The notes under the pieces: generated by a model
Seen by the model: the letters and a program-made list of their open reading frames with translations, nothing else
Databases searched by the model: none
What the model was told of the DNA's origin: nothing
From: a virus
Taxonomy: Monodnaviria > Loebvirae > Hofneiviricota > Faserviricetes > Tubulavirales > Inoviridae
Reading direction: 5' to 3' (one strand)
DNA length: 8,624 bases
Virus record (IMG/VR): IMGVR_UViG_2541047910_000001
In this document: positions 1 through 15 of the stretch, in pieces
Numbering within the stretch: the stretch's first letter is position 1
Layout: each line of letters begins with the position of its first letter
Made by a program: the position numbers and the translations under genes

Positions 1-15
1 TACATTATGCGCACC
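1..15 (-). other. Partial dif-like XerCD recombination site (XerC arm plus 4 nt of central region), cut by the window edge
   Basis: tacattatgcgcacc is the exact reverse complement of GGTGCGCATAATGTA, the first 15 nt of the 28-bp E. coli dif site as I recall it (GGTGCGCATAA-TGTATA-TTATGTTAAAT). Confidence 0.6.

What the first reader, a model, noticed from the sequence alone, without database searches (positions are those of the whole stretch)
1..15. Window starts inside a dif site: XerCD-dependent integration junction
Exact match to the reverse complement of the dif XerC arm and four central-region bases implies the prophage is an IMEX-type element integrated at the chromosome dimer resolution site using host XerC/XerD. 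This explains the absence of an integrase and predicts a second dif-like junction at the other end.
Basis: partly seen in the sequence, partly recalled or inferred. Interest (0 to 1): 0.55.

Follow-up and report, generated by a model that had tools for sequence, protein, structure and literature searches.

The report
Known filamentous prophage integrated at dif

Summary
Observation confirmed. Window 1-15 (TACATTATGCGCACC) is an exact reverse complement of the E. coli dif XerC arm plus four central bases. In the window's own source scaffold the 13 upstream bases are ATTTAACATAATA, completing a perfect 28-bp dif. The same 15-mer follows the window end, and an unoccupied strain shows the predicted flank-dif-flank joint.

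The window is one unit of a CUS-1/YpfΦ-family inovirus prophage: 99.6% identical to Y. pestis YpfΦ over 6.75 kb, identical attP region, and no integrase in any ORF.

Across the circular junction it pairs with the junction site (8607-8624 plus 1-15) to form a forked single-strand hairpin, the CTXΦ-type attachment site. The hairpin folds well (z = -7.1) and is kept in relatives through compensatory changes. Host-specific XerC arms place the crossover at the XerC side.

All this matches published descriptions: YpfΦ and CUS-1Φ integrate at dif and are listed as CTX-type elements. Xer dependence and single-strand integration are inferred, not shown, for this phage.

Verdict: interpretation supported, already known, low interest. 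Side notes: an 876-bp deletion truncates the secretin, and the cargo next to attP is variable and includes a restriction-endonuclease-like gene.

The parts
1..4 (-). First four bases (TGTA on the minus strand) of the dif central region. They are shared by host dif (TGTATA) and the phage attP spacer (TGTACGACTCG).
   Evidence: Part of the 15-bp identity that flanks the prophage as a direct repeat.
5..15 (-). XerC-binding arm GGTGCGCATAA of the regenerated dif site. With the 17 bases left of the window it forms a perfect 28-bp dif. It is inferred to be the phage-borne arm.
   Evidence: Phage origin is inferred from loci where the host and phage arms differ.
181..1251 (-). Secretin (pIV-like), truncated to 356 aa by an 876-bp deletion whose junction lies at about 214-218. 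The full-length homologue is 414 aa.
   Evidence: Pfam PF00263. The deletion was mapped against strain D8 and YpfΦ.
1251..2276 (-). Zot / pI-like assembly ATPase.
   Evidence: Pfam PF05707, E = 2e-26.
2280..2567 (-). DUF2523 small membrane protein at the pVI position.
   Evidence: Pfam PF10734.
2580..4292 (-). Large ORF at the pIII (receptor-binding) position. RefSeq annotates a shorter 520-aa form.
   Evidence: Assigned by gene order. No Pfam match. Annotation.
4357..4590 (-). Major coat protein (pVIII-like).
   Evidence: Weak PF05356 match below the curated cutoff, plus size and position.
4625..4876 (-). Small ORF (83 aa) of the structural block, with no family match.
   Evidence: RefSeq annotates the homologue in NU14 as a membrane protein.
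4879..5196 (-). Single-stranded-DNA-binding protein (G5P-like).
   Evidence: Pfam PF17426, E = 1e-52.
5208..6260 (-). Rolling-circle replication initiator (G2P / RstA-like).
   Evidence: Pfam PF05144 and PF05155.
6432..6878 (+). HTH repressor at the RstR position.
   Evidence: Pfam HTH_3 and Phage_CI_repr. Homology to RstR is stated in PMC4266046.
6978..8539 (+). Variable cargo block next to attP: a 140-aa membrane-like ORF (6978-7400), a 264-aa DpnII-MboI-type REase-like protein (7468-8262) and an 88-aa DUF6953 protein (8273-8539).
   Evidence: Pfam and PADLOC. The block differs from YpfΦ, from NU14 CUS-1 and from the upstream copy in CU532-9.
8546..8572 (+). Site A (attP2-like), an inverted dif-like site: GGTTCGCACAA (XerC-like arm, 9/11), TGACG (5-nt spacer), TTATGCTAAAG (XerD-like arm, 9/11).
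   Evidence: Conserved in relatives.
8573..8606 (.). An 11-bp GC-rich stem (8573-8583 pairs with 8596-8606) and a 12-nt loop. It extends and caps the attP hairpin. On the plus strand it is followed by TTTTC.
8607..8624 (-). The part of site B (attP1-like) inside the window: the XerD-like arm TTATGTTGAAA (9/11, at 8607-8617) and 7 of the 11 spacer bases (8618-8624). In the circular phage, or in a tandem array, the site is completed by window 1-15. In the single prophage it is completed by the 15 bases after the window end.

Best explanation
The window is one genome length of a CUS-1/YpfΦ-family filamentous phage inserted in the E. coli dif site beside hipBA. It is cut at the 15-bp identity (GGTGCGCATAA+TGTA) shared by dif and the phage attachment site.

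The phage has no integrase. Its attachment region holds two inverted dif-like sites. Site B has an 11-nt spacer and spans the circular junction. Site A has a 5-nt spacer and lies at 8546-8572. In the packaged single strand, taken to be the sense strand of the core genes (the window's minus strand), the two sites pair into a forked hairpin. That hairpin presents a XerC-arm duplex and a XerD-arm duplex around an unpaired centre.

Host XerC/XerD would bind this hairpin and dif. XerC would exchange one strand pair at the border between the XerC arm and the spacer, helped by the shared TGT(A). Replication would then convert the junction into a prophage.

The result is what the sequence shows. One side has a perfect dif made of the phage XerC arm, the host centre and the host XerD arm (window start). 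The other side has a non-canonical site made of the host XerC arm, the phage 11-nt spacer and the phage XerD-like arm (window end).

Shown here: location, junction anatomy, crossover side, absence of an integrase, and the fold and conservation of the hairpin. Inferred by analogy with CTXΦ: dependence on XerC/XerD, the single strand as substrate, XerC-only catalysis, resolution by replication and irreversibility.
For: - Exact 15-mer at 1-15, with 0 of 200 shuffles matching.
- Full dif in the window's source scaffold and in strain D8. The same 15-mer follows the window end, then the hipA flank.
- Unoccupied site equals flank + dif + flank.
- Complete inovirus gene set and no recombinase.
- Two inverted dif-like sites with 11-nt and 5-nt spacers.
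- Single-strand DNA fold across the circular junction: -31.2 kcal/mol, z = -7.1, with 0 of 200 shuffles as good.
- Divergent relatives fold equally well, z = -6.6 to -8.8.
- In 15 distinct hairpins, 92.9% of cells are paired against 31-53% when partners are slid. Five pairs changed on both sides, against 0 of 500 shuffles.
- The spacer always starts with TGT.
- Crossover side: the outer-junction XerC arm varies with the host flank, while the arm in the regenerated dif always follows phage sequence and is phage-type. For the host of L039, unoccupied sites carry AGTGCGCATAA+TGTATA+XerD arm with the same flanks, and the lysogen has AGTG-arm+phage spacer on one side and GGTG-arm+TGTATA on the other.
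- The backbone is 99.6% identical to YpfΦ and the attP region is 100% identical.
- Literature: YpfΦ integrates at dif, regenerates an intact dif, has paired inverted XerC/XerD sites and leaves an imperfect dif between copies (PMC4266046). YpfΦ and CUS-1Φ are listed as members of the CTXΦ class, and CTXΦ attP1 and attP2 have 12-bp and 5-7-bp spacers (PMC4246890).
Against: - None of the papers I could read reports a test of Xer dependence or of single-strand integration for CUS-1 or YpfΦ. PMC4266046 calls the XerC-dependent scheme 'proposed'.
- Which strand is packaged is inferred from gene orientation only.
- The covariation rests on few independent lineages. Most compensatory changes come from the Brenneria/L037 lineage.
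- The E. coli junctions alone cannot locate the crossover, because the host and phage arms are identical there.
- PMC4266046 reports that superinfecting YpfΦ inserts between resident copies at the imperfect site. The plain CTX model does not predict this.
Confidence: 0.85

Rival explanations
1. VGJΦ-type integration. The double-stranded replicative form recombines with dif through site B alone. XerC makes the first exchange and replication resolves the junction. Site A and the stem are incidental, for example a transcription terminator for the cargo genes.
For: The junction sequences would be the same as those observed. On the plus strand the GC stem is followed by TTTTC just after the last cargo gene. 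The published report of insertion between resident copies at the imperfect site (PMC4266046) hints that the 11-nt-spacer site may be usable.
Against: Site B has an 11-nt spacer. Published work says such extended centres are unsuitable for Xer recombination in duplex form (PMC4246890). An inverted partner site with both arms is conserved in every relative, including very divergent ones, with compensatory changes. The consensus terminator scan did not flag the stem. VGJ-type elements carry a single site of about 29 bp.
Confidence: 0.08
2. This copy was not placed by site-specific recombination. It is a remnant of a larger tandem array, or arrived by homologous recombination with a resident copy, and was later reduced to a single defective copy.
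For: Tandem arrays are common: the phage-phage junction is in 93 of 5,426 complete E. coli genomes. This copy carries a deletion. PMC4266046 discusses homologous recombination among copies.
Against: This explains copy number only, not why the element sits exactly in dif with hybrid junctions. The first copy still needs the Xer-type event. The junctions in the source scaffold are precise.
Confidence: 0.05
3. The 15-base match is a chance resemblance or an artefact of how the window was cut, with no relation to dif.
For: With up to 3 mismatches allowed, chance gives 0.26 matches per window.
Against: The match is exact, with 0 of 200 shuffles matching. It is completed to a 28-bp dif upstream. It lies at the known dif locus beside hipBA, and the unoccupied site is as predicted.
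Confidence: 0.01

Closest known systems
CUS-1Φ (E. coli O18:K1:H7) and YpfΦ (Yersinia pestis) filamentous prophages
   Same: The backbone is the same: window 214-6958 is 99.6% identical to YpfΦ in Y. pestis NCTC5923, and the attP hairpin and window 1-214 are 100% identical. The integration site (dif) is the same, an intact dif is regenerated at one end, and the gene order matches (PMC4266046; NU14 locus).
   Different: The cargo block next to attP (window about 6959-8540) differs from YpfΦ and from CUS-1 in strain NU14. An 876-bp deletion removes the secretin C-terminus and the two small ORFs homologous to YPO2280a and YPO2281. In the source scaffold the prophage is a single copy rather than a tandem array.
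CTXΦ of Vibrio cholerae (CTX-type IMEX)
   Same: Two inverted dif-like sites are present, one with a long spacer (11 nt here, 12 bp in CTXΦ attP1) and one with a short spacer (5 nt here, 5-7 bp in attP2). Identity to dif is confined to the bases next to the XerC arm. There is no integrase, tandem arrays occur, and the module order is RstR-like repressor, then RstA-like initiator, then core genes.
   Different: The two sites are separated by 34 nt here and by about 90 bp in CTXΦ. The host, the dif sequence and the cargo differ (no ctxAB). The proteins were not compared with CTXΦ here. None of the mechanistic steps have been shown experimentally for this phage.
UPΦ phages of Enterobacterales (Shapiro and Putonti 2020, PMC7307601)
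   Same: They integrate at dif and share genes II and V with YpfΦ at more than 85% identity. Loci whose replication protein is 85-87% identical carry the same attP hairpin module.
   Different: Their structural genes are IKe/I2-2-like, less than 20% identical to YpfΦ according to the paper. The window has the YpfΦ-type structural genes.
VGJΦ-type and TLCΦ-type IMEXs
   Same: They are filamentous or satellite elements that use host XerCD at dif.
   Different: VGJ-type elements have one duplex attP of about 29 bp and integrate reversibly. TLC-type elements have a degenerate XerD arm and a XerD-first exchange (PMC4246890). Here there are two inverted sites, the XerD-like arms are good (9/11), and the crossover is on the XerC side.

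Membership tests
IMEX (integrative mobile element exploiting Xer) | Inserted precisely in the host dif site | tested here: met
   A perfect dif at one junction and a hybrid site at the other, in the source scaffold and in strain D8. The unoccupied site is flank + dif + flank.
IMEX (integrative mobile element exploiting Xer) | No self-encoded integrase or recombinase | tested here: met
   Pfam scan of all 12 long ORFs plus the 45-aa ORF at 7-144 found no recombinase family.
IMEX (integrative mobile element exploiting Xer) | Carries a dif-like attP with XerC- and XerD-binding arms | tested here: met
   Site B arms match at 11/11 and 9/11, and site A arms at 9/11 and 9/11.
IMEX (integrative mobile element exploiting Xer) | Integration requires host XerC and XerD | not testable with these tools
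   This needs genetics (xerC and xerD mutants). The literature I could read calls it 'proposed' for YpfΦ.
CTXΦ-type IMEX | Two inverted dif-like sites that pair within the single strand into a hairpin presenting XerC- and XerD-arm duplexes | tested here: met
   Fold z = -7.1. 92.9% of cells are paired against 31-53% in slid controls, and 5 pairs are compensatory. Divergent relatives also fold.
CTXΦ-type IMEX | Neither site is a canonical duplex Xer substrate (spacer too long, or centre incompatible) | tested here: met
   The spacers are 11 nt (site B) and 5 nt (site A), against 6 nt in dif. The criterion is from PMC4246890.
CTXΦ-type IMEX | Identity to dif in the centre is limited to the bases next to the XerC arm | tested here: met
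   TGTA is shared and the rest differs (TGTACGACTCG against TGTATA). TGT is invariant in all variants.
CTXΦ-type IMEX | Crossover at the XerC side: host arm joined to phage spacer at one end, phage arm joined to host centre and XerD arm at the other | tested here: met
   Lysogen L039 was compared with unoccupied sites L065 and L066 of the same host. Supporting cases are L011 and the two Y. pestis junctions. E. coli itself is not informative.
CTXΦ-type IMEX | The single-stranded genome is the substrate, only XerC catalysis is needed, replication resolves the junction, and integration is irreversible | not testable with these tools
   Inferred by analogy with CTXΦ (PMC4246890).
CTXΦ-type IMEX | Tandem arrays that allow rolling-circle production of new genomes | tested here: inconclusive
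   Arrays are common in E. coli (93 genomes with a phage-phage junction; NU14 and CU532-9). The window's own source has a single copy.
VGJΦ-type IMEX | A single duplex attP of about 29 bp with a 6-7-bp centre | tested here: not met
   There are two inverted sites, and the recombining one has an 11-nt spacer.
TLCΦ-type IMEX | Degenerate XerD arm, centre matching dif, XerD-first exchange | tested here: not met
   The XerD-like arm matches at 9/11, the centre differs on the XerD side, and the crossover is on the XerC side.
CUS-1/YpfΦ lineage (Inoviridae) | Near-identical backbone from the repressor to the secretin, plus the same attP | tested here: met
   99.6% identity over 6,746 nt and 100% over the attP hairpin, compared with Y. 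pestis NCTC5923. Inovirus Pfam families are present.

The most novel reading that the evidence does not exclude
The non-canonical junction site (host XerC arm, 11-nt spacer, phage XerD-like arm; window 8607-8624 plus the next 15 nt) might not be inert as in CTXΦ. It could be a live Xer target in enterobacteria. This would fit the published report that superinfecting YpfΦ inserts between resident copies. It would also make the attP-adjacent cargo slot, here holding a restriction-endonuclease-like defence candidate, an exchange point for genes delivered to the terminus by single-strand integration.
Probability: 0.1. Interest if true: 0.45.

Novelty: already known. Interest (0 to 1): 0.15.

Why it matters
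It matters little beyond correct annotation. The window should be labelled a CUS-1/YpfΦ-type inovirus prophage at dif, with its attachment-site parts marked, and not treated as an unexplained integrase-less prophage.

Three modest points of value come out of it.

- Sequence evidence from natural lysogens in several hosts supports the CTX-type hairpin and the XerC-side crossover for the enterobacterial family, for which I found no published experiments.
- After integration the working dif of the lysogen carries a phage-derived XerC arm. Published 'native' dif sequences taken from lysogens may therefore be hybrids.
- The attP-adjacent cargo slot is variable and here carries a candidate defence nuclease.

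Tried and rejected
- A megablast of the window against the phage collection found nothing, so YpfΦ and CUS-1 appear not to be deposited there as phage records.
- The window's deletion junction was searched in 5,426 complete E. coli genomes and found in none. The source was found instead by exact look-up of the truncated secretin.
- A search for a full 28-bp dif, or for arms with a variable gap, inside the window found nothing, because the arms of the internal sites diverge.
- The original CUS-1 paper (PMC135385) is not held.
- A literal search of the literature for variant dif sequences gave no hits.
- A MAFFT alignment that included the two most divergent hairpins misplaced their arms, so pairs were counted on 15 alignable variants and the divergent ones were folded separately.
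- One pair-count call failed on a malformed structure string.
The GGTGCACATAA marker is therefore supporting evidence only.
- Chance match, TLC-type integration and VGJ-type integration were considered and rejected or down-weighted, as set out under the rival explanations.

Full report
**Observation.** The window begins TACATTATGCGCACC. On the minus strand this reads GGTGCGCATAA-TGTA. That is the 11-nt XerC arm of E. coli dif plus the first four of the six central bases, with no mismatch. The E. coli K-12 dif sequence GGTGCGCATAATGTATATTATGTTAAAT is as tabulated in PMC2731167. The exact 15-mer appeared in none of 200 dinucleotide-preserving shuffles. The relaxed search with up to 3 mismatches expects 0.26 matches per window, so exactness and context are what count.

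- The window matches about 87 of 5,426 complete E. coli genomes over at least 80% of its length, always beside hipBA.
- In strain D8 the bases left of the window start are ...ATTTAACATAATA, giving a perfect 28-bp dif. The window end is followed by the same 15-mer and then the hipA flank.
- The window differs from these genomes by an 876-bp deletion, and no complete genome shares that junction.
- An exact look-up of the truncated secretin found the window's own source, NCBI scaffold KE701908.1 (GCA_000460655.1). That scaffold contains the window exactly and in full. The upstream 13 nt are ATTTAACATAATA, the downstream bases are TACATTATGCGCACC followed by chromosome, and the prophage is a single copy.
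- A query built as left flank + dif + right flank matched contiguously in prophage-free strains. In FDAARGOS_1258 the site reads caggca-ATTTAACATAATATACATTATGCGCACC-aacataaacc, exactly as predicted.

**What the element is.** The ORFs form an inovirus set:
- G2P-type replication initiator
- G5P-type single-strand-binding protein
- a coat-B-like protein
- a large ORF at the pIII position
- DUF2523, at the pVI position
- Zot/pI
- a secretin
- a divergently transcribed HTH repressor

Three cargo ORFs follow. No ORF matches an integrase or recombinase family. Window 214-6958 is 99.6% identical to the YpfΦ prophage of Y. pestis NCTC5923. Window 1-214 and the attachment region are 100% identical to it, and only the cargo block differs. 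PMC4266046 describes CUS-1 of E. coli K1 as 99% identical to YpfΦ over 7.1 kb, with different ORFs at the attL-adjacent end. The window is therefore a CUS-1/YpfΦ-family prophage with its own cargo.

**The attachment site.** A scan for dif-like arms found two sites.
- **Site A**, plus strand, 8546-8572: GGTTCGCACAA / TGACG / TTATGCTAAAG.
- **Site B**, minus strand, spanning the circular junction (8607-8624 joined to 1-15): GGTGCGCATAA / TGTACGACTCG / TTATGTTGAAA.

The two sites are inverted. Between them lie an 11-bp GC stem and a 12-nt loop (8573-8606).

The region was folded as single-stranded DNA across the circularised junction, on the sense strand of the core genes. It forms one long hairpin in which the two XerC-like arms pair, the two XerD-like arms pair, and the spacers stay unpaired. 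The free energy is -31.2 kcal/mol and z = -7.1. The complementary strand gives z = -6.0.

This is the layout published for CTXΦ. There, attP1 has a 12-bp spacer, attP2 has 5-7 bp, the two are inverted, neither is usable as duplex DNA, and specificity is set by the bases next to the XerC site (PMC4246890). The same review lists YpfΦ and CUS-1Φ as related members of the CTXΦ class. PMC4266046 notes the paired inverted XerC/XerD sites in YpfΦ.

**Conservation.**
- The replication protein retrieved 7 loci from species genomes (Y. pestis, Klebsiella, Brenneria, Phytobacter, Photorhabdus and two MAGs) and 39 viral contigs.
- In most loci where the attachment end was captured, the two-site architecture recurs, and the long spacer always begins with TGT.
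- On 15 distinct hairpins, 92.9% of cells form standard pairs, against 31-53% when the partners are slid.
- Five pairs changed on both sides, and 0 of 500 shuffles reached that number.
- The compensatory changes come from few lineages, mainly Brenneria and L037, so this evidence is supportive rather than strong.
- Three divergent hairpins with different stems and loop lengths also fold well, with z from -6.6 to -8.8.

**Where the crossover is.** In E. coli the host and phage XerC arms are identical, so the junctions there are uninformative. Elsewhere the two arms behave differently.
- The arm at the outer junction changes with the chromosomal flank: AGTGCGCATAA in three different contexts, and also AGTACGCATAA, GATGCGCATAA and GGTGCACATAA.
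- The arm inside the regenerated dif always follows phage sequence and is always the phage type.

For the host of lysogen L039, metagenome contigs L065 and L066 show the unoccupied site with the same two flanks and a native dif of AGTGCGCATAA-TGTATA-TTATGTTAAAT. The lysogen has AGTGCGCATAA joined to the phage spacer at one end, and GGTGCGCATAA-TGTATA-TTATGTTAAAT at the other.

The spacer therefore stays with the XerD side, and the exchange lies at or near the border between the XerC arm and the spacer. This fits a XerC-mediated exchange and excludes a XerD-first (TLC-type) event. It also implies that the XerC arm at window 5-15 came in with the phage, and that the host's original arm lies just beyond the window end.

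**Mechanism.** The best-supported account is CTX-type integration.
1. The packaged strand folds into the forked hairpin.
2. Host XerC/XerD bind the hairpin and dif.
3. XerC exchanges one strand pair, stabilised by the shared TGT(A).
4. Replication fixes the prophage.
5. Because the hairpin no longer exists in duplex DNA, the prophage is not expected to excise.
6. New genomes come from rolling-circle replication across tandem copies.

Tandem junctions occur in 93 complete E. coli genomes (examples). The steps involving the proteins, the single strand as substrate and irreversibility are inferred from CTXΦ. PMC4266046 itself calls the XerC-dependent scheme for YpfΦ 'proposed', and I found no experimental test.

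The main rival is duplex (VGJ-type) integration through site B alone. The 11-nt spacer and the conserved inverted partner site argue against it, but only experiments can exclude it.

**State of this copy.** It is a single copy. Its secretin lacks the C-terminal part (356 aa against 414 aa), and the two small ORFs next to dif are deleted. If disruption of the secretin gene abolishes particle production in this phage as reported for YpfΦ (PMC4266046), this copy is probably unable to produce virions by itself. That is an inference.

**Verdict.**
- a non-canonical second junction that lies mostly outside the window;
- an extra inverted site that makes the element CTX-type;
- a phage origin for the XerC arm at the window start;
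- tandem arrays in which the same 15-mer follows a phage end.

Integration of CUS-1 and YpfΦ at dif is already published (PMC2731167, PMC4266046, PMC4246890, PMC3442271, PMC7307601), so novelty is 'already known' and interest is low.

Noticed in passing
window about 214-218 (junction); affects ORF 181-1251: An 876-bp deletion relative to strain D8 and YpfΦ removes the C-terminal part of the secretin (356 aa against 414 aa) and two small ORFs next to dif (homologues of YPO2280a and YPO2281). The exact truncated protein is on at least 10 public contigs, but the junction is in none of 5,426 complete E. coli genomes.
   Followed up: partly
window 7468-8262 and 8273-8539: The cargo next to attP includes a 264-aa protein with a DpnII-MboI-type restriction-endonuclease domain (PF18742, E = 7e-59). 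It also matches the PADLOC models Aga_Helical-REase (1e-34) and PDC-S35 (N-terminus, 4e-11). An 88-aa DUF6953 protein follows it. No methyltransferase is present in the window. This may be a defence gene carried by a filamentous prophage.
   Followed up: partly
window about 6959-8540; L002 2502-3920; L056 22149-23788; L010 1091-1911: The slot between the repressor and attP holds at least four different gene sets on an otherwise about 99% identical backbone: the window, the upstream copy in CU532-9, CUS-1 in NU14, and YpfΦ. This suggests a recombination hot spot.
   Followed up: partly
L002 1-13504 (E. coli CU532-9): A tandem array of two different cargo variants of the phage. In this array the window's first 15 bases are preceded by the end of the other phage, not by the XerD arm.
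   Followed up: partly
hairpin alignment A2, columns 4/92 and 33/68 (window 12 with 8549; 8607 with 8572): Two positions of the hairpin are non-pairs in nearly all variants: G opposite A at XerC-arm position 4 (12 of 15) and A opposite C at the outer XerD-arm position (14 of 15). It is unknown whether these conserved mismatches matter for Xer binding.
   Followed up: no
L039 141-168 and 8385-8412; L065, L066; L010 993 and 9735: After integration the functional dif carries the phage's XerC arm (G at position 1), while the host's native arm (A at position 1) is left at the non-canonical junction. The 'Y. pestis CO92 dif' tabulated in PMC2731167 (GGTGCGCATAA...) may be such a hybrid, since the outer junction in strain NCTC5923 has GGTGCACATAA. 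This was not verified.
   Followed up: partly
L012, L014: Contigs labelled as Aerococcus and Candidatus Nanosynbacter MAGs carry this enterobacterial phage. L014 also has an E. coli-type dif and a flank that partly matches E. coli's. They are probably mis-binned contigs.
   Followed up: no
L057-L083: In metagenome contigs, the same host left flank plus native dif is followed by at least six different right-hand sequences. These may reflect other elements inserted at dif or different species.
   Followed up: no
L011 4976-5096 and 6169-14142 (Klebsiella spallanzanii): A rearranged array with a duplicated partial phage segment. Its attP hairpin is of a different type, with a 9-nt spacer and a longer stem-loop.
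   Followed up: no
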